Positions 7,746 through 40,919 of a stretch of 64,000 bases of DNA are shown piece after piece. The position numbers and the translations under genes are program-made. Below the pieces are notes generated by a model. That model did no database searches, was not told the DNA's origin, and worked only from the letters and a program-made list of their open reading frames with translations. The stretch's first letter is position 1, and each line of letters starts with the position of its first letter. The stretch is from Escherichia coli (lineage in GTDB: Bacteria; Pseudomonadota; Gammaproteobacteria; Enterobacterales; Enterobacteriaceae). The stretch lies in the NCBI RefSeq assembly GCF_965641715.1, contig NZ_OZ282453.1. The stretch is one strand, 5' to 3'.

Positions 7746-10700
7746 TTAATCAAACAGTGATTCAATGTCGTTAATCAGCTCGCTGGCGGTGATGTCGTCG
7801 AGCATGGAGAAAGTGGGTGAGGATTGTTTACCATAGCGATCATAAGGGGCGGTGATTTTTACGCTTTCGACAGGCAGCAGGTCGCTATACCCCGTTTCGC
7901 CATAAATTAATGAAAAAGGTTCCGTTTCAAGTTCGAGAGCACCATAAGGGGTAGATTTGCGCATCGCATAAACGCTGCCGCTTTCTTCCAGACGTTGCCA
8001 GCCTCGGCGTTCCAGCCCGACAATGCGTCCGGCCTGGCAGAGACGTCCGTTCCAGCGTGACAATTCATGGACATTACGTTCGTTATCAGCAAGGTGGTAA
8101 CTACCACGTTCGAGCTGTTGGAAAGGGGGAAGCAGTTCGTAATCAACGTAAATTTGCCTGAATGCAGCGGCGGATTCAGGGGGGATTTCCAGCACATGCG
8201 GTATACCGATGTTTCCTGCTGGCAGCGTGAATAACTCATCCTGCGCATCGCTGTAAGTGCTGTCTTCTGCCACGCGAAAACAGGTGATAAGAGCGTTTTC
8301 ATCGTTATAAACCCCCCATAACAGCCGTCGGGTTAAGTGACGTACCAGCGGATGCTCCACCAGAAACAGGCGGAACTGCTCTGCCGTCCAGCGTCTGCGC
8401 TGGCACATAGCCTGTTCCAGACGGGTAATATGCTGGCTGGCGATAGCACGAACATCTTTTTTCAACTGTTTGAAGAGATTAACTGCGTCAGTTGCCAGTG
8501 TTTTATCATCGCTCTGGTTTGGCTTAGGTAAATCTTTCAGGACTTTGCCGTTTGCATCGCACACTACAGGTTTTAAGGTTTCGTCAAAACCAACGGTGAA
8601 TTTGCGGGGGCCGAAATCCAGTATCAGCGAGCCACTGCTATCAAGCCCTAAATCTGGAGCCAGGCGGTCTTCCATTTCAGCCATAGTCAGCCCACGGTTT
8701 TCAGCAACTATGTTGATTTTCTCGCGGGCATGTTCCTGTAATGCTTTGAATTTAATTTTTCGCGCGATGCCATTAAGCAGCATTAGCGCAACATCGCTGC
8801 CAATATCAGCTAATACATCCAGCCCGGACACCGCCCGTTTATGCTGGGATTCCCCAGGCCAGGCGCGGATAAGCGGGGTTAATTTACGCGCGGTGTCGTC
8901 ATTGCCTAAAATCCCAAGCGAAGTAAATGCCCAGTTTTCTTTTGCGGGTGCGCCAGCTTCTGTCCAGGCGGTATACAGATCCCAGCCAAATTCAGCCAGT
9001 GATTCGCGGGTGAAGATTTCTCTAATGATATCCAGCCCAGCGTAGGCGGTAATGTCGCGAGGAAAGCTCAGCATAGTGCCGAGGTGGCGCATAGCGTCAT
9101 CTGACAGAGGCAGGTTGTTACTTTTAAGCCGTGGTCTGCGCCATAAGGTGAACTGATAAAAGCCGGGCAGTGGGGCGATTTTAGCGGGATATTCTTCCAG
9201 CGGCTCGCTATCAAATAATGTTGCCAGCGCAGCTAAAACATCAGGTTGGTTATACCCCTGGGCGATTTCTTCAATCGTTTCTCGCTGGTTTAAATTCACC
9301 AGCAGACGAAGCGCCTGGCGGGCACAATCACGATCTTTTCCTTTTTTGCCCAAGGCCACAGGAAGTAGCCCGGCGGCAGCATGGCGTGGGAAGTTAGCCA
9401 GCCATTTTCGAGCATCTTCAGCAGACATTTTTTTCTGTAATCGCTGCGCCATCGGTAATGCTAATTCGCTGACGCCCAGGAAGAGGGTGAATATCCATAA
9501 CTGTTGTGGCTTACGTTGCAGACATTTCATAAACGCAGGAATGGCCGCATCACCAAAAATCGCCAGAATTTCTCTCTCGCCGGAGAATTGCTCTTCATTA
9601 ATTATTTGATTGAGAAAAGAAATAGCATGCTGAGTGGGTAGGAAGCAGAGCGCGTACAACTGCCAGTGTCTGCTTCCTTTGTTATGGTATTGCGCAAACT
9701 CGGCTTTCAGCGCGGGGAAATCGAAACGTAACAGGGCATCAACTGCGCTTTGTGGCATTATTTTTTTTTCGTATTGTTCTTCTCCGGTTCTGCGCCATTC
9801 CTTAAACCCCAGTCGCCAAAGGATTTGCTGTTCTGGCGTTAAAGGGATGAAAGACGTTTCCCAGCGTTCTTTTTTTATCGGTGGCAGGTCGGTAAATAAG
9901 GTTTGCTGTGATGCCTGATATTGCGCGATTTCACTGAATCTGGATATGTCAGTATGACTGATTAACTCTGTAATTCCTGGTGTGATATCCGTGACGGCAG
10001 GAATGGGAAGTACCGGTAAATCAAATACGGGTATGACATTCTTTTTCTTATTTATTACCCACGGTGGAGCGACAAGCAGCTCCGGCAACATATCCACAGT
10101 GGCATATTCACATTCTTCAGCTACTGGCAGCGGACGACATTCAGATAAGATGCCTGCCGCCTTAGCATTAACCCAGGGAATGACCTCGCATACTAACTCT
10201 GGCGTGGCGGTAATCAGTTTGACAAGCGCTTTACGCCACTCATTATTTTCATGTATTGCCAGCAAAGTAGCATAAGCGGCAATAGCCGCAGCGGGATGTT
10301 TTTGGCAGGCTTTGCTTAAGTATTCCAGGTGCTTTTTCTTGCCATTTACACCGAGGATCAGAATTTGAATCGCATCCGGGTGATTCGTTTTCCATAGCCA
10401 TTTGACAAGATCTTCAGTCTCGCTGATACGCTCGAAGAGATAAGTGGGATTGTCAGAATGCTCTTCCGTAAACTCAAGAAGTATCCGGCTTACACCGCGC
10501 ACCCCATTATTTGCCAGCAACATTGCCAGATAAGCGCGAAAATCATGATACAACGGTGGGAAGTCGTATTTTTCTGCTGTAGTCAGAGCGGCGTCATCGG
10601 TTACCACCAGTCTTAACCAGGTCATCGCCGGAACGTTTTGATCTGCATAACGTAGCGCCATAGCATTGGCAATATCCGGGCGTTCAGGGAGCAGTAACGC

Positions 10701-11543
10701 CGCAAAAGGTTGTCGTGCTGGGGATAGCGAGGGAATAGCAGCGAGTACTTTATCTACACAGCGTTGCCACTCATCTTCTGAAGCGAGTGAAAGATGATGA
10801 CATAGACGTTGATGCCAACTCGGTAGCGATTCTGCTTCGTGATTAGGTGGAATGATGGTGGTTACTGCGCCTTTTACTGGTTTATATTTGAGTTGAAGAG
10901 CGAGAAGGGCGATTTCAACGGCACTTTCCAGACCACAGCGAATGACTAAGTCATCGACCAGTTCATCTTGAGAGTAAGAGTTCCAAAAGCCCCAGAGCAA
11001 TGCTGCATCAGATTGCGCACTCCCTGTCGGTTGATTACCCTTAACTCGCATTTGTAACTCAGCAAAAGCCTGCTGCCAGTTTTCTGGATAAGAGCGGTAA
11101 TTGTTGTCGGGATCATATGCCCTGGTGTTATTCGCGATGCGCTTCCATATTTGGCCATCTTTGTACAGATAATTGATCTCTCTGGGGCGAGAGCGATGAG
11201 GAAAAGCAAATCGATTAATATCGTCAGTGACCGGAATGACTGCATCATCAGCCAGCCAGGGGCGTTGGTTTTTACTCTCAGGGGAAGTTTCAACTTCAGG
11301 AGTGGCTTTGGTAATGGGGGGGATATGCACGTTTGCTGAAGCATTTTCCACATAGCCTTTTTTCGTTTTCTCCGCGATAAGCTTCAGTTTCGCTTTTTCC
11401 GCTGCTGCAACATCAGCAAAATTTTTTACCTGGCTTTGCCCTTGGGTACCAACTTTTCCCCAGCTGATATGCAACTCGTTTCCCTGCTGCTCCACCGCCC
11501 AGAATTTATGTGATTTTTCGTCCTGATAGATAAAGTGTCTCAT
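7746..11543 (-). CDS. molR: MolR-like large protein (1265 aa), intact; WGR-like N-terminus plus DUF4132-like region
   Basis: Track ORF 1265 aa next to metG; N-terminus MRHFIYQDEKSHKFWAVEQQGNELHISWGKVG; in K-12 this gene is, as I recall, a pseudogene. Confidence 0.6.
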   Translation of the reverse strand: MRHFIYQDEKSHKFWAVEQQGNELHISWGKVGTQGQSQVKNFADVAAAEKAKLKLIAEKTKKGYVENASANVHIPPITKATPEVETSPESKNQRPWLADDAVIPVTDDINRFAFPHRSRPREINYLYKDGQIWKRIANNTRAYDPDNNYRSYPENWQQAFAELQMRVKGNQPTGSAQSDAALLWGFWNSYSQDELVDDLVIRCGLESAVEIALLALQLKYKPVKGAVTTIIPPNHEAESLPSWHQRLCHHLSLASEDEWQRCVDKVLAAIPSLSPARQPFAALLLPERPDIANAMALRYADQNVPAMTWLRLVVTDDAALTTAEKYDFPPLYHDFRAYLAMLLANNGVRGVSRILLEFTEEHSDNPTYLFERISETEDLVKWLWKTNHPDAIQILILGVNGKKKHLEYLSKACQKHPAAAIAAYATLLAIHENNEWRKALVKLITATPELVCEVIPWVNAKAAGILSECRPLPVAEECEYATVDMLPELLVAPPWVINKKKNVIPVFDLPVLPIPAVTDITPGITELISHTDISRFSEIAQYQASQQTLFTDLPPIKKERWETSFIPLTPEQQILWRLGFKEWRRTGEEQYEKKIMPQSAVDALLRFDFPALKAEFAQYHNKGSRHWQLYALCFLPTQHAISFLNQIINEEQFSGEREILAIFGDAAIPAFMKCLQRKPQQLWIFTLFLGVSELALPMAQRLQKKMSAEDARKWLANFPRHAAAGLLPVALGKKGKDRDCARQALRLLVNLNQRETIEEIAQGYNQPDVLAALATLFDSEPLEEYPAKIAPLPGFYQFTLWRRPRLKSNNLPLSDDAMRHLGTMLSFPRDITAYAGLDIIREIFTRESLAEFGWDLYTAWTEAGAPAKENWAFTSLGILGNDDTARKLTPLIRAWPGESQHKRAVSGLDVLADIGSDVALMLLNGIARKIKFKALQEHAREKINIVAENRGLTMAEMEDRLAPDLGLDSSGSLILDFGPRKFTVGFDETLKPVVCDANGKVLKDLPKPNQSDDKTLATDAVNLFKQLKKDVRAIASQHITRLEQAMCQRRRWTAEQFRLFLVEHPLVRHLTRRLLWGVYNDENALITCFRVAEDSTYSDAQDELFTLPAGNIGIPHVLEIPPESAAAFRQIYVDYELLPPFQQLERGSYHLADNERNVHELSRWNGRLCQAGRIVGLERRGWQRLEESGSVYAMRKSTPYGALELETEPFSLIYGETGYSDLLPVESVKITAPYDRYGKQSSPTFSMLDDITASELINDIESLFD

Positions 11544-24364: not shown

Positions 24365-24419
24365 GCACCGTACTATAGCTGCTTTGGTTATTGTCAGCCT
24401 TTGGCACTGACATTCAGGG

Positions 24420-25247
24420 ATGAAACCAATGCAGCTAAGCATTACCAGTCGAAAAAAACTCACCGCTCTATTATGCGCTCTTGGGCTAATTTCCATCGTT
24501 GCAATTTATCCGCGTCAGACGGTGAATTTTTTCTATTCGACAGCAGTTCAGATTACAGACTACATCCACTTCTACGGTTATCGCCCGGTTAAATCTTTCG
24601 CTATTCGCATTCCTGCCAGTTACACCATTCACGGAATAGATGTTTCGCGCTGGCAGGAGCGGATCGACTGGCAGCGGGTGGCAAAAATGCGCGACAACGG
24701 TATCCGCTTACAGTTTGCTTTTATTAAGGCGACGGAAGGCGAAAAGCTGGTGGACCCGTATTTTTCGCGTAACTGGCAACTAAGCCGCGAAAATGGCCTG
24801 CTGCGCGGGGCGTATCATTATTTCTCCCCGTCGGTAGCAGCGCCGGTTCAGGCGCGATTATTTCTGCAAACGGTGGATTTCTCACAAGGCGATTTCCCTG
24901 CCGTGCTGGACGTAGAAGAACGGGGAAAATTATCGGCAAAAGAATTACGCAAGCGGGTAAGTCAGTGGCTAAAAATGGTCGAAAAAAGTACGGGAAAAAA
25001 GCCGGTTATTTACTCAGGAGCCGTTTTTTATCACACCAATCTGGCGGGCTATTTCAATGAATATCCGTGGTGGGTGGCTCACTACTATCAACGTCGTCCG
25101 GACAATGACGGCATGGCCTGGCGCTTCTGGCAGCATTCCGACCGTGGACAGGTAGATGGCATCAATGGTCCGGTGGATTTTAATGTATTTAATGGCACGG
25201 TGGAGGAGTTGCAGGCATTCGTTGATGGGATTAAAGAAACGCCTTAA
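24420..25247 (+). CDS. yegX: Glycoside hydrolase family 25 (lysozyme-like) protein YegX
   Basis: 275-aa track ORF; N-terminal membrane anchor; GH25-like; start may be a few codons downstream. Confidence 0.7.
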   Translation: MKPMQLSITSRKKLTALLCALGLISIVAIYPRQTVNFFYSTAVQITDYIHFYGYRPVKSFAIRIPASYTIHGIDVSRWQERIDWQRVAKMRDNGIRLQFAFIKATEGEKLVDPYFSRNWQLSRENGLLRGAYHYFSPSVAAPVQARLFLQTVDFSQGDFPAVLDVEERGKLSAKELRKRVSQWLKMVEKSTGKKPVIYSGAVFYHTNLAGYFNEYPWWVAHYYQRRPDNDGMAWRFWQHSDRGQVDGINGPVDFNVFNGTVEELQAFVDGIKETP

Positions 25248-38837: not shown

Positions 38838-38995
38838 GAATATTTTTTGGTAAGCGTCAAACATGCGCGTTCTGGTTGTGCTTAGCCGGAACCTGTGCGA
38901 GCACGATGCCAATAAGTGAAAGGCATCGTGCTATGAAGGGAGATTCTATCGATGTGGTCAATGGAAGACGGTGACCAGGGATAGGGCTTATGCAT

Positions 38996-39022
38996 AAAAA
39001 ATAAGCCCGTGTAAGGGCGTTT
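38996..39022. other. P2-type integrase core/attachment sequence (prophage boundary on the int side)
   Basis: Seen: aaaaaataagcccgtgtaaggg, matching the P2 att core AAAAAATAAGCCCGTGTAAGGG as I recall it; lies about 80 bp from the int stop. Confidence 0.65.
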
Positions 39023-39101
39023 ATATACCCTTACAACAGGGGCTTTCAGCGGTGCAATGCGGGTTTGCGCGGCACGCAAGACCACTGAAAGCCATAATAA
39101 A

Positions 39102-40115
39102 CTACCCTACTGTGGACACTGTGTGGACACTCTGAGAGCCAACACCACCACGTAGAGGATTAAGCGTTATCGCGTCCTGTAGGTACTCAGGGGCGAAGTG
39201 CGCATATGTCATTGTCTGCTCAATTCTTGAATGCCCAAGTATTCTCTGAAGCGTGATAATGTTGCCTCCGTTTATCATAAAGTGCGTGGCGAAGCTGTGC
39301 CGCAATGCGTGCGTAGCCTGACCCGGTGGTAGGTCGGGTTTCAGCTCCTTCATTAGCCGTCTGAACGCGGGATAGTTAGCATCAGTGAACAGATAGCCAC
39401 GCTTACCCGTTGTGATCATTGTTGCCAGTTCCTCGGATATAGGAACGGTTCGCGGCTTGTTGGTTTTTGTCTTAACGAAAGTGACGCGATTTTGAATGAT
39501 ATTTTCCGCTTTCAGTTTTGCTGCCTCACTCCATCTCGCGCCGGTGCTAAGGCAAAGAATCGCAATTTTTTTATTATCACCGTCCACTTTTGACAGCAGA
39601 AGCGCGATCTCCTCTTGCGTCAGGTAGCCGGTTTCTGGCTTATCCTCTTTGAGTCTTTTAAGACCTCGGAAAGGATGCTCCCCGAAAAATAGCTCCGCAT
39701 CTATCAACGCGGTAAACATCCCGCTAAGACACGTTAAATCACGATTTATACTCGATGGCTTGATGCCTTGAGAACGCCGCACAGTGCTGTATTGGCTTAT
39801 CAATGACTTAGTAATCTGAAAGGCACAAGGGTCACTGGTTATCTTTGTGAACAACTCTAACTTGCCCAGGTAATCTCGGCCGTGAGTTTCATACTTGCCT
39901 TTCAGCTCCCACCAGATTTTTGTTAGCTCTGACAGATGCCGCTTATCTGTCGGTTTCGCCAACCATTTTTTGTTGTGATGGTTGTACTGGGTATGCTTCT
40001 CGAAAGCGATAGCTTCGCTTTTCTTGTCAAATTTCCTGCGGATGCGCTTTCCGTTGCGCCCTGCAGGTCTAATGTCCACTTCATAACGACCATCATCGAG
40101 CTTTTTAACAGACAT
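39102..40115 (-). CDS. int: P2-type tyrosine integrase
   Basis: About 337 aa from MSVKKLDDGRYEVDIRPAGRNGKRIRRKF; C-terminal catalytic motifs HALRHSFATHF and LGHSRIEQTMTYAHF. Confidence 0.9.
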   Translation of the reverse strand: MSVKKLDDGRYEVDIRPAGRNGKRIRRKFDKKSEAIAFEKHTQYNHHNKKWLAKPTDKRHLSELTKIWWELKGKYETHGRDYLGKLELFTKITSDPCAFQITKSLISQYSTVRRSQGIKPSSINRDLTCLSGMFTALIDAELFFGEHPFRGLKRLKEDKPETGYLTQEEIALLLSKVDGDNKKIAILCLSTGARWSEAAKLKAENIIQNRVTFVKTKTNKPRTVPISEELATMITTGKRGYLFTDANYPAFRRLMKELKPDLPPGQATHALRHSFATHFMINGGNIITLQRILGHSRIEQTMTYAHFAPEYLQDAITLNPLRGGVGSQSVHTVSTVG

Positions 40116-40211: not shown

Positions 40212-40508
40212 TTAGCCAGTTTTCTGGTCTGAGTGGGGTGACGTTGTTGTCTGCTGCCCAAAGTGCGCGAGAGCCGGTGCAATCTGCCCAGCTTCTGGTG
40301 ATATCGTCTCAGTCATGAACCACATGGTATATTTTTTGAACTGTGGATGATTCAAAATCTTCATCACTGCTTGTATGCCCATATCTTTTACTCCCTTCTC
40401 ATAACTAGAAAGAGAGCTATACGGAACTCCAGTTAAGTCACTGAATTCTTTTCTATTCATACGTTCCGACTCACGCATGATGGCCAGCTTCTCGTTGACG
40501 GGTATCAT
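40212..40508 (-). CDS. C: Immunity repressor C (HTH)
   Basis: About 98 aa from MIPVNEKLAIMRESERMNRKEFSDLTGVPYSSLSSYEKG; divergent from cox. Confidence 0.75.
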   Translation of the reverse strand: MIPVNEKLAIMRESERMNRKEFSDLTGVPYSSLSSYEKGVKDMGIQAVMKILNHPQFKKYTMWFMTETISPEAGQIAPALAHFGQQTTTSPHSDQKTG

Positions 40509-40591
40509 CGTAATTAACACTCCACTATTGATAGAAAAACGATAACGGAGTAATCTTCGCTTCGTTACCGCAGATTTATGGCTCCAATATG

Positions 40592-40621
40592 GCAATTAAA
40601 AGCCATTAGGAGCAATTAAAA
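40592..40621. promoter_or_regulatory. Direct repeats GCAATTAAAA x2 spaced 20 bp in the C-cox switch region; candidate C operator half-sites around the early promoter
   Basis: Seen in sequence; P2 C repressor is known to bind direct repeats flanking the early promoter -35 (recalled). Confidence 0.4.
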
Positions 40622-40643
40622 CACTAACGAGGAATAGTCACAA

Positions 40644-40919
40644 ATGAATAGGGTCATTGAGAGCGCGAGCGACGCGGTTCCGTATCAGGAGTTTGCGCGT
40701 CTTATTGGTAAAACCCCTGCTGCTGTCAAAGGGATGATTGAGAAAGGCAAACTACCGATAGTTGAGATGACTGATCCGCAGTCTACAAGTGGGAGAGCAG
40801 GGGAATACCGGGTATATCTGCCAGCATGGAACAAAGGCATGAAGATGGCCTATGACAGTCGCCCTAAAGAAATTCGTGATGGTTGGTTGATGTGGTTGGG
40901 ATTAGGTGAACCAGCATAA
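40644..40919 (+). CDS. cox: Cox excisionase/early-promoter repressor
   Basis: 91 aa; strongly P2 Cox-like by recollection (AVPYQEFARLIGKT...GRAGEYRVYLPAWN...IRDGWLMWLGLGEP). Confidence 0.85.
   Translation: MNRVIESASDAVPYQEFARLIGKTPAAVKGMIEKGKLPIVEMTDPQSTSGRAGEYRVYLPAWNKGMKMAYDSRPKEIRDGWLMWLGLGEPA

What the first reader, a model, noticed from the sequence alone, without database searches (positions are those of the whole stretch)
40509..40643. C-cox immunity switch region with 20-bp-spaced direct repeats
GCAATTAAAA occurs twice, 20 bp apart, between the divergent C and cox genes. P2-type repressors bind direct rather than inverted repeats, so these are candidate operator half-sites. Their sequence would define the immunity specificity of this prophage.
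Basis: partly seen in the sequence, partly recalled or inferred. Interest (0 to 1): 0.3.

Follow-up and report, generated by a model that had tools for sequence, protein, structure and literature searches.

The report
Cox-binding repeats in P2-like switch
The two GCAATTAAAA copies are real, but they most likely belong to a one-per-helical-turn row of binding sites for the prophage's Cox protein over the repressor-gene promoter, not to the operator of the C immunity repressor, which comparative data place about 50 bp to the left; this is an ordinary part of a known kind of phage switch.

Summary
Observation confirmed. GCAATTAAAA occurs at 40592-40601 and 40612-40621, 20 bp start to start, in the 135-bp spacer between C (40212-40508, -) and cox (40644-40919, +) of a P2-like prophage at the yegR/P2 attachment site. 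Only 23 of 5000 shuffles give such a repeat.

Interpretation only partly right. The true period is 10 bp: TRF finds 3 copies and I count six phased units. The units match the P2 cox-box TTAAA(G/C)NC(A/C) as well as P2's own Cox-bound Pc region does. They lie where P2 has Pc and its cox-boxes.

The array is shared by relatives whose C proteins are only 59-82% identical. It is poorly conserved in two relatives (L024, L026) that share this C's recognition helix.

Those same relatives keep an invariant block, TTGATA-17-TAATCT (Pe, 40528-40556). It is flanked by CGATAACGG (40540-40548) and CGTTACCGC (40563-40571), the geometry of P2 O1/O2. That block is the probable C operator and immunity determinant.

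Best reading: the repeats are the Cox operator over Pc. It is a new member of a known kind and of low interest. A side point is that the predicted C sites are quasi-palindromic. No binding was tested.

The parts
40592..40601 (+). GCAATTAAAA copy 1 (the finding). It spans the ...GCAA tail of one cox-box-like unit and the TTAAAA head of the next.
40612..40621 (+). GCAATTAAAA copy 2 (the finding).
40564..40634 (+). Phased array of cox-box-like 9-mers at 10-11 bp spacing; the predicted Cox operator. The scored six-box path covers 40564-40624: GTTACCGCA 40564, TTTATGGCT 40575, AATATGGCA 40586, TTAAAAGCC 40596, TTAGGAGCA 40606, TTAAAACAC 40616. A further weak unit, TAACGAGGA 40626, extends it to 40634. 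The outermost units are weak.
   Evidence: The best six-box path scores 32/48 against TTAAASNCM, against 26.4 +/- 1.7 in shuffles (9 of 1000 reach it). P2's own Cox-bound spacer scores 29. The array ties for the top score of both strands of the 64-kb window. The positive control recovers the P2 Pc region and att-side sites in relatives. Consensus and spacing are from PMC3936717.
40605..40643 (-). Approximate location of Pc, the leftward promoter for C. It is not pinned down. The position homologous to the P2 Pc -10 is 40605-40610 (CCTAAT on the - strand). An alternative is TTGTGA (40643-40638) - 17 nt - TTTAAT (40620-40615).
   Evidence: Alignment to the annotated P2 Pc plus my own reading of the sequence. 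The promoter scan found nothing here. Inference only.
40528..40556 (+). Pe, the early promoter for cox-orf78-B-A: -35 TTGATA 40528-40533, 17-nt spacer, -10 TAATCT 40551-40556.
   Evidence: Conserved as TTGA(T/C)(A/T)-17/18-TAATCT in all eight relatives that share the C recognition region. Same layout as P2 TTGACA-17-TAGTAT. The automatic scan missed it because the -10 matches only 3 of 6.
40540..40548 (.). Predicted C operator site O1, CGATAACGG, inside the Pe spacer.
   Evidence: It lies in the longest invariant block of the alignment of eight spacers, ACGATA.C.GAGTAATCT. Geometry as P2 O1.
40563..40571 (.). Predicted C operator site O2, CGTTACCGC, 6 nt downstream of the Pe -10 and 23 bp from O1. 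It is weaker in the window than in relatives.
   Evidence: In every lineage the best match to O1 lies 19-23 bp downstream of it, at 6-9 of 9 positions, in otherwise diverged sequence.
40212..40508 (-). C immunity repressor gene, 98 aa.
40644..40919 (+). cox gene, 91 aa, encoding a P2-type Cox. The Shine-Dalgarno GAGGA is at 40629-40633.
39039..39112 (.). Second predicted Cox-binding region, in the P' side of attL. It corresponds to the annotated P2 Cox site 24399-24472.
   Evidence: 116 of 141 positions are identical to P2 attP from the core to the P' arm. P2 annotation. A phased box array starting at 39065 is among the top six of the window for four boxes.
38996..39017 (.). attL core AAAAAATAAGCCCGTGTAAGGG, identical to the P2 attP core. 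The Int arm sites TGTGGACA x2 follow at 39111-39129.

Best explanation
The two GCAATTAAAA copies are units 1 and 3 of a 10-bp-period array of cox-box-like sites (about 40575-40634, + strand). The array lies immediately upstream of cox and overlaps the leftward promoter Pc that drives the C repressor gene. The prophage's own P2-type Cox protein, a winged-helix protein that polymerises and wraps DNA, is predicted to bind one protomer per helical turn along this array and shut off Pc. That commits the phage to lytic growth. The same protein is predicted to bind a homologous site next to attL (39039-39112) for excision.

The C repressor is predicted to act about 50 bp to the left. Its sites O1 (CGATAACGG, 40540-40548) and O2 (CGTTACCGC, 40563-40571) flank the -10 of the rightward promoter Pe (TTGATA-17-TAATCT, 40528-40556). 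Those sites, not GCAATTAAAA, would define immunity specificity.

Shown here: positions, periodicity, match to the cox-box consensus, homology to annotated P2 features, and conservation patterns. Inferred: who binds where, and the exact Pc hexamers.
For: 1. Period 10 bp, 3.0 copies, by TRF. A relative, L021, has GCAATTAAGA GCAATTAGAC directly adjacent, also period 10.
2. [quoted passage not shown] The window's best six-box phased path scores 32/48, and 9 of 1000 shuffles reach that. P2's own spacer scores 29.
3. The same score ties for first place in the 64-kb window. It also picks out the att-side Cox region at 39065. As a control it recovers the annotated P2 Pc region and the sites beyond int in L021 and L026.
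4. Position: the array aligns with P2 950-1022, which carries the annotated Pc -10 and -35.
5. The adjacent gene encodes a Cox 71% identical to P2 Cox. The att-side region is 82% identical to P2 attP, including the annotated Cox site.
6. Identity of the cox-proximal half of the spacer follows Cox identity: 63-76% in phages with a P2-type Cox, 50-56% in phages with WPhi-, pro147- or D8-type Cox. The C-proximal half is at background (53-60%) outside the class.
7. Eight spacers from phages sharing this C's helix 3 and loop (YSSLSSYEKGVKDMG) keep ACGATA.C.GAGTAATCT invariant, and a second O1-like site lies 19-23 bp downstream of O1. In L024 and L026 of this set the GCAATTAAAA units have diverged.
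8. P2, WPhi, L-413C and L014 all carry their perfect direct repeats within 60 bp of the C start, around Pe.
Against: - No binding experiment exists for this phage.
- The cox-box consensus is short, AT-rich and degenerate. An equal array score occurs once by chance inside an ORF at about 10.9 kb. The individual outer boxes match only 4-5 of 8 positions.
- Pc itself could not be located convincingly (and my own reading).
- GCAATTAAAA is the only perfect direct repeat in the spacer. The predicted O1/O2 pair is imperfect in the window: 6 of 9 as a direct repeat, 7 of 9 as an inverted one.
- The 20-bp spacing is close to the 20-22 bp seen for C half-sites in L014 and P2.
Confidence: 0.77

Rival explanations
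1. The two GCAATTAAAA copies are the O1/O2 half-sites of the C immunity repressor, and their sequence sets immunity specificity.
For: They are the only perfect direct repeat in the spacer and are unlikely by chance. C-family repressors bind 8-10 bp direct repeats. A 20-bp spacing equals that of the clear ATCACCTAT pair in L014 and is near P2's 22 bp. A related sequence, GTAATTAAC, sits next to the C start at 40510-40518 (family D3).
Against: - They lie 36-65 bp downstream of the conserved Pe -10, over the Pc-homologous region. All characterised C operators flank the -10 or -35 of Pe.
- The period is 10 bp, with an intervening related unit.
- The motif is shared by phages with C only 59-77% identical and with different helix-3 residues: P2, Kp phi5.4, L014, 720R8. 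Immunity groups share at least 95% C identity (PMC3448106).
- The motif has largely diverged in L024 and L026, which have the same C helix 3.
- In Citrobacter L010, where C is 99% identical, copy 1 is already GCAATTTAAA.
Confidence: 0.07
2. The repeats are promoter architecture only. They would be tandem -10-like elements (TTTAAT on the minus strand) and phased A-tracts that bend DNA for Pc. They would be conserved because they are the promoter, with no sequence-specific Cox contact to these particular bases.
For: Each copy reads TTTTAATTGC on the minus strand, which contains TTTAAT (5 of 6 of the -10 consensus). TTGTGA-17-TTTAAT can be drawn at 40643-40615 (my reading). AAAA tracts 20 bp apart are in helical phase. 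P2's Pc -10 (TATAAT) lies inside the homologous array.
Against: - In P2 the cox-boxes and Pc overlap, so the two readings are not exclusive.
- A promoter needs one -10, not a row of four to six phased units, and the row is conserved as a row.
- The automatic promoter scan finds nothing on the minus strand here.
Confidence: 0.1
3. The sequence matters as RNA. Copy 1 would form the loop of a hairpin in the cox mRNA leader: GGCUCC..AUGGC [AAUUAAAA] GCCAU..GGAGC.
For: The window's leader 40563-40650 folds at -17.4 kcal/mol, z = -2.4, and 4 of 200 shuffles fold as well.
Against: - The consensus structure across ten related leaders is negligible (-0.88 kcal/mol), and most pairs are simply conserved or broken.
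- There is no Rfam match.
- The opposite-strand leader is no better than shuffles (z = 0.07).
- The hairpin does not explain copy 2 or the 10-bp period.
Confidence: 0.03
4. A chance repeat in AT-rich intergenic DNA with no function.
For: The word is not enriched in the window. The region is AT-rich.
Against: Only 23 of 5000 shuffles reach a 10-nt repeat. The array is conserved in phase relative to the cox ATG across genera.
Confidence: 0.03

Closest known systems
Phage P2 Cox operator: the cox-box array over the Pc promoter (Saha et al.; Berntsson et al. 2014, PMC3936717)
   Same: - Same position, immediately upstream of cox and over Pc.
- Same orientation, and a 10-bp phasing within P2's 10-11 bp range.
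- Comparable match to TTAAA(G/C)NC(A/C).
- Cognate Cox 71% identical to P2 Cox, with a second homologous site beside att.
   Different: - The unit sequence is GC(A/C)ATTA(A/G)(A/G)A, with A or G rather than G or C at box position 6.
- Two units are identical 10-mers.
- The spacer is 135 bp rather than 114 bp.
- Pc hexamers are not recognisable.
- Binding is untested.
P2 / WPhi / P2 Hy dis C operators O1-O2 (Henriksson-Peltola et al. 2007, PMC1904268)
   Same: These are the right comparison for the predicted CGATAACGG / CGTTACCGC pair at 40540-40571. It has two 8-10 bp sites, 20-23 bp apart, flanking the Pe -10 as in P2.
   Different: - GCAATTAAAA itself fails the positional and class-specificity criteria.
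- The predicted true sites are quasi-palindromic. In three lineages they match better as an inverted repeat than as a direct one, unlike the plainly direct P2 and WPhi half-sites.
Coliphage 186 Apl sites between pR and pL (PMC7498355)
   Same: A recombination directionality factor that doubles as a switch regulator. It binds direct repeats one helical turn apart, both between the face-to-face promoters and at att (abstract).
   Different: It belongs to a different protein lineage and a different switch type (CI/CII/Apl). No sequence similarity was examined here.
P2-like immunity classes I-X (Karlsson et al. 2006; Nilsson et al. 2011, PMC3448106)
   Same: Same gene order (int-C-cox) and the same attachment core as P2. 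The C protein is of the roughly 100-aa P2 type.
   Different: - This C is at most 71% identical to any C in 50,697 phage records and at most 82% identical to prophage C proteins outside its own class.
- I could not compare it with classes IV-X because those sequences and the 2006 paper were not available.

Membership tests
P2-type C repressor operator (O1/O2 half-sites) | Two directly repeated 8-10 bp sequences | tested here: met
   10 of 10 identical, same strand. A related third unit lies between them.
P2-type C repressor operator (O1/O2 half-sites) | Half-sites flank the -10 or the -35 of the early promoter Pe | tested here: not met
   Pe was footprinted at 40528-40556. The repeats start 36 bp downstream of its -10, in the position of P2's Pc.
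P2-type C repressor operator (O1/O2 half-sites) | The sequence is specific to the immunity class and co-varies with the C recognition helix | tested here: not met
   The array is shared by phages with C 59-77% identical and with different helix 3. It has diverged in L024 and L026, which have the same helix 3.
P2-type C repressor operator (O1/O2 half-sites) | Bound by the cognate C protein, with repression of Pe lost when both sites are mutated | not testable with these tools
   Needs EMSA or footprinting and a reporter assay.
P2-type Cox operator (cox-box array at Pc) | Several copies (six in the P2 targets) of a 9-mer resembling TTAAA(G/C)NC(A/C) | tested here: met
   Six phased 9-mers score 5, 5, 4, 7, 5 and 6 of 8, total 32/48, and 9 of 1000 shuffles reach that. 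P2's own spacer scores 29. The outer units are weak.
P2-type Cox operator (cox-box array at Pc) | Boxes spaced 10-11 bp start to start | tested here: met
   TRF period 10. Path spacings are 11, 11, 10, 10, 10.
P2-type Cox operator (cox-box array at Pc) | Overlaps the Pc promoter between Pe and cox | tested here: inconclusive
   The position is homologous to the annotated P2 Pc. However, no convincing Pc hexamers were found in the window.
P2-type Cox operator (cox-box array at Pc) | A cognate Cox protein of the P2 family is encoded next to it, with a second Cox site at att | tested here: met
   PF10743 at E 4.5e-40; PDB 4lhf at E 1e-44. The att-side region is 82% identical to P2 attP, including the annotated Cox site.
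P2-type Cox operator (cox-box array at Pc) | Protected by Cox over about 70 bp, with repression of Pc | not testable with these tools
   Needs footprinting and a Pc reporter. Note that the window's Cox carries R56 in place of the conserved W.
P2-type lysis-lysogeny switch (int-C / cox, face-to-face Pe and Pc) | Divergent genes for a roughly 100-aa HTH C protein and a roughly 90-aa Cox, next to a P2-type integrase and att site | tested here: met

The most novel reading that the evidence does not exclude
Within the finding's coordinates, the real C operator of this uncharacterised immunity class may be built from quasi-palindromic sites (CGATAACG / CGTTATCG) flanking the Pe -10. In the Klebsiella-type relative L023 they form a perfect 9-bp inverted repeat. 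In L024 they form a direct repeat.

If C of this class recognises a symmetric or invertible site, it would be a natural intermediate between ordinary palindrome-binding HTH repressors and the puzzling direct-repeat binding of the symmetric P2 C dimer. Meanwhile GCAATTAAAA serves Cox.
Probability: 0.25. Interest if true: 0.45.

Novelty: new member of a known kind. Interest (0 to 1): 0.2.

Why it matters
For annotation: in P2-like prophages, the most eye-catching direct repeat between C and cox is likely to be the Cox operator over Pc, not the immunity operator. Using it to assign immunity specificity would group heteroimmune phages together. The comparative footprint gives a concrete, testable operator and promoter assignment for a rare immunity class. 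That class occurs in 36 of 5426 complete E. coli genomes, with near-identical C (98-99%) also in Citrobacter and Lelliottia prophages; Klebsiella and Buttiauxella prophages carry related C proteins (79-82%) that share its recognition helix. The quasi-palindromic character of the predicted C sites is a small but genuine lead on how a symmetric C dimer reads 'direct' repeats. Otherwise this is a standard component of a well-studied switch.

Tried and rejected
- **Phage records, near-identity search.** Megablast of the switch region against 50,697 phage records gave no match. Only distant and protein modes found relatives.
- **Karlsson et al. 2006** (immunity classes I-VII) could not be retrieved. 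Assignment to a published class is therefore left open.
- **Plain cox-box scan** at two mismatches or fewer around the switch was too noisy to read. I replaced it with a phased-array score.
- **Window-wide search for the predicted C half-site** CGWTAWCGG was uninformative. It gave 116 hits against 45 expected, spread through coding DNA.
- **TTGACG at 40495-40500** looks like the conserved Pe -35 of other P2-like phages. I rejected it because it is 8 bp out of register, arises from C codons V4-N5, and has no -10 at 16-18 nt. I also set aside the scan's only promoter hit, TGGCCA-16-TATCAT (40481-40508), in favour of the phylogenetically conserved TTGATA-17-TAATCT.
- **RNA explanations.** No Rfam family matched. 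There is no conserved structure across ten relatives. The window-only hairpin has z = -2.4.
- **Equal-scoring phased array near 10.9 kb** lies inside a 1265-aa ORF and is chance.
- **Pc hexamers.** I tried to fix them from conservation on the minus strand, and no candidate is shared by all relatives.
- **C operator of the neighbouring class** (L012, L013, 720R8, with the same helix 3 apart from its last residue but a different following loop). Only weak TAATT or TCGTAGT repeats were found.

Full report
**Context.**
- The window carries the left end of a P2-like prophage inserted beside yegS-yegR.
- The junction core AAAAAATAAGCCCGTGTAAGGG (38996-39017) is identical to the P2 attP core. The next 120 bp, up to the TGTGGACA Int arm sites, are 82% identical to P2 attP.
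- The genes that follow are int (39102-40115/40148, -), C (40212-40508, -), cox (40644-40919, +), then homologues of orf78, B and A. RefSeq annotates the same genes in a near-identical E. coli prophage.
- C matches the P2 C protein (PDB 2xcj/2l49) at E 6e-35 and 59-60% identity. Cox matches Pfam Phage_Cox at E 4.5e-40 and P2 Cox (4lhf) at E 1e-44.
- The finding's coordinates, 40509-40643, are exactly the C-cox spacer.

**The observation.**
- GCAATTAAAA occurs at 40592-40601 and 40612-40621, 20 bp start to start.
- A 10-nt exact direct repeat arises in 23 of 5000 dinucleotide-preserving shuffles of the 135-bp spacer. The word is not enriched in the window as a whole.
- Tandem Repeats Finder reports a period of 10 bp, not 20, with three copies at 40592-40621: GCAATTAAAA, GCCATTAGGA, GCAATTAAAA, followed by a weaker CACTAACGAG.

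**Where the known C operators lie.**
- In the P2 record the C half-sites O1 and O2 (GTTTAGAT, 22 bp apart) flank the -10 of Pe, within 35 bp of the C start codon. Pc is annotated about 60 bp further on, next to cox.
- The literature says the same. P2, P2 Hy dis and WPhi half-sites are 8-10 bp, 22-34 bp apart, and flank the -10 or -35 of Pe (PMC1904268).
- My own extraction recovers the perfect pairs at that end of the spacer: TATTGGTGAC x2 at 34 bp in WPhi, CTATATAGG x2 at 34 bp in L-413C, and ATCACCTAT x2 at 20 bp in an Enterobacter hormaechei prophage.
- The GCAATTAAAA copies are at the opposite end, 23-52 bp upstream of the cox ATG.

**What lies at that end in P2.**
- Cox binds there. The cox-box consensus is TTAAA(G/C)NC(A/C), in at least six copies spaced 10-11 bp, and the boxes overlap the -10 and -35 of Pc. 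Cox polymerises and wraps the DNA (PMC3936717).
- Written in that register, the window reads ...GCAA TTAAAAGCCA TTAGGAGCAA TTAAAACAC TAACGAGG.
- A phased-array score (matches to the consensus summed over boxes 10 or 11 bp apart) gives 32/48 for six boxes starting at 40564. Shuffles give 26.4 +/- 1.7, and 9 of 1000 reach 32. P2's own Cox-bound spacer scores 29 for six boxes and ties at 22/32 for four.
- Over both strands of the 64-kb window this locus ties for first place. The att-side region (39065) is among the top six for four boxes.
- As a control, the same score peaks at the annotated Pc region in P2. It also peaks just beyond int, where the att Cox site lies, in two relatives.
- The one equal score elsewhere (about 10.9 kb) is inside a long ORF and is chance. 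The score is supportive rather than decisive.

**Comparative evidence.**
- No phage record is close: the best C is 71% identical.
- The same switch is in 36 of 5426 complete E. coli genomes, almost clonally. It is also in Citrobacter and Lelliottia, where C is 98-99% identical.
- More distant relatives came from genome and metagenome collections.
- Two patterns separate the two halves of the spacer.
  - **First pattern.** The cox-proximal array is shared, in phase with the cox ATG, by phages whose C proteins are only 59-77% identical and whose helix 3 differs (P2, 720R8, Kp phi5.4, L012-L014). Identity of that half follows Cox identity: 63-76% against 50-56% for phages with unrelated Cox types. 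The C-proximal half is at background outside the class.
  - **Second pattern.** Five further spacers (two Klebsiella-type, one Logan, two Buttiauxella-type), together with the three of the window's own class, come from phages whose C shares the window's helix 3 and following loop (YSSLSSYEKGVKDMG). In these eight, the longest invariant block is ACGATA.C.GAGTAATCT. The GCAATTAAAA units have drifted. In L021 they are GCAATTAAGA GCAATTAGAC at 10-bp spacing. In L024 and L026 they are barely recognisable.
- Even in Citrobacter, with 99% identical C, copy 1 is GCAATTTAAA.

**Pe and the probable C operator.**
- All eight spacers keep TTGA(T/C)(A/T), 17-18 nt, TAATCT. In the window these are TTGATA 40528-40533 and TAATCT 40551-40556.
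- CGATAACGG (40540-40548) lies in the promoter spacer. In every lineage the best match to it lies 19-23 bp downstream, just past the -10. In the window this is CGTTACCGC, 40563-40571.
- This is the P2 O1/O2 geometry.
- P2 alanine scanning shows that helix 3 residues Y31, T33, L34, Y36, Y37 and E38 are needed for repression (PMC2995052). The window's helix differs at T33 (S) and Y36 (S), so a different operator from P2 is expected.
- By the published criterion of at least 95% C identity within an immunity group (PMC3448106), this is its own class among sequenced phages. I could not compare it with classes IV-X.

**Mechanism proposed (inferred).**
- In the lysogen, C made from Pc occupies O1 and O2 and blocks Pe.
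- After infection or derepression, Pe transcribes rightward through the array into cox.
- Cox nucleates on the phased boxes, with the two identical units perhaps being the strongest sites. It polymerises, wraps the DNA and silences Pc. The same protein acts at 39039-39112 for excision.
- The exact Pc hexamers remain uncertain. The position homologous to P2's TATAAT reads CCTAAT (40610-40605). TTGTGA-17-TTTAAT (40643-40615) is an alternative. The automatic scan reports neither.

**Rivals.**
- The C-operator reading keeps some weight, about 0.07. GCAATTAAAA is the only perfect repeat, and the predicted O2 is weak in the window.
- A promoter-only reading is not exclusive of Cox binding.
- An RNA hairpin with copy 1 in its loop is seen only in this class (z = -2.4). 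It is not supported across relatives (-0.88 kcal/mol), and Rfam finds nothing.

**Side observation of some interest.**
- The predicted C sites are quasi-palindromic. As inverted repeats they match at 7-9 of 9 positions in the window, Citrobacter, Lelliottia and Klebsiella-type lineages, with a perfect 9 of 9 in L023. As direct repeats they match best in L024 (8 of 9) and L026 (7 of 9).
- The P2 C dimer is symmetric yet binds direct repeats. This class might therefore be informative, but that needs experiments.

**Verdict.** This is a new member of a known kind, of low interest.

Noticed in passing
window 40809 (cox codon 56): The window's Cox has Arg56 (CGG). P2 Cox, all eight other P2-type Cox sequences compared, and the near-identical E. 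coli WCHEC005784 prophage have Trp (EYWVYLP). This single T-to-C change at a conserved residue of the wing region could impair Cox, and therefore excision and the lytic switch.
   Followed up: partly
window 40555 (Pe -10): The window, like the Citrobacter, Lelliottia, Klebsiella and Buttiauxella relatives, has TAATCT. The E. coli WCHEC005784 prophage has TAATAT, closer to the consensus. The other 99.8%-identical E. coli prophages were not read. This base and 40809 are the only two differences in 801 bp. The SNP density is similar elsewhere in the prophage (7 in about 3.9 kb).
   Followed up: partly
window 38946-38995: The host-side flank left of the attL core resembles the P arm of P2 attP: CGATGTGGTCAATG is identical, followed by GACGGTGACCAG-like sequence. 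The attL here therefore looks almost like a complete attP. This fits an older P2-like remnant at the yegR site.
   Followed up: partly
window 40519-40523 / 40547-40551; L021 spacer: An ACTCC ... GGAGT inverted repeat brackets the Pe -35 and the promoter spacer. In the Klebsiella relative L021 it is a perfect 9-bp inverted repeat, ATTACTCCG / CGGAGTAAT. It overlaps O1 and the -10. Its role is unknown.
   Followed up: no
window 40495-40500: TTGACG inside the C coding sequence mimics the conserved Pe -35 (TTGACA overlapping the C start) of other P2-like phages. It is 8 bp out of register and has no -10. In this class Pe appears to have moved about 33 bp into the spacer.
   Followed up: partly
L024 / L025 (Logan assemblies), genes next to cox: The same int-C-cox switch is followed by a large Toprim-domain primase gene (884-890 aa) instead of the P2 B/A replication genes. 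The P2-type switch is joined to a different replication module.
   Followed up: no
L004 (phage WPhi) spacer, cox-proximal part: WPhi also has a 20-bp-spaced direct repeat next to cox, CTAGAAAGGAC / CTAGAAGGGAC. It is distinct from WPhi's known C half-sites TATTGGTGAC at Pe. This suggests that cox-proximal repeats are a general feature of these switches.
   Followed up: no
window ~10897-10929, minus strand: A phased cox-box-like array scores as high as the C-cox spacer but lies inside a 1265-aa ORF (7746-11543). I take it as a chance match that shows the limits of the consensus score.
   Followed up: yes
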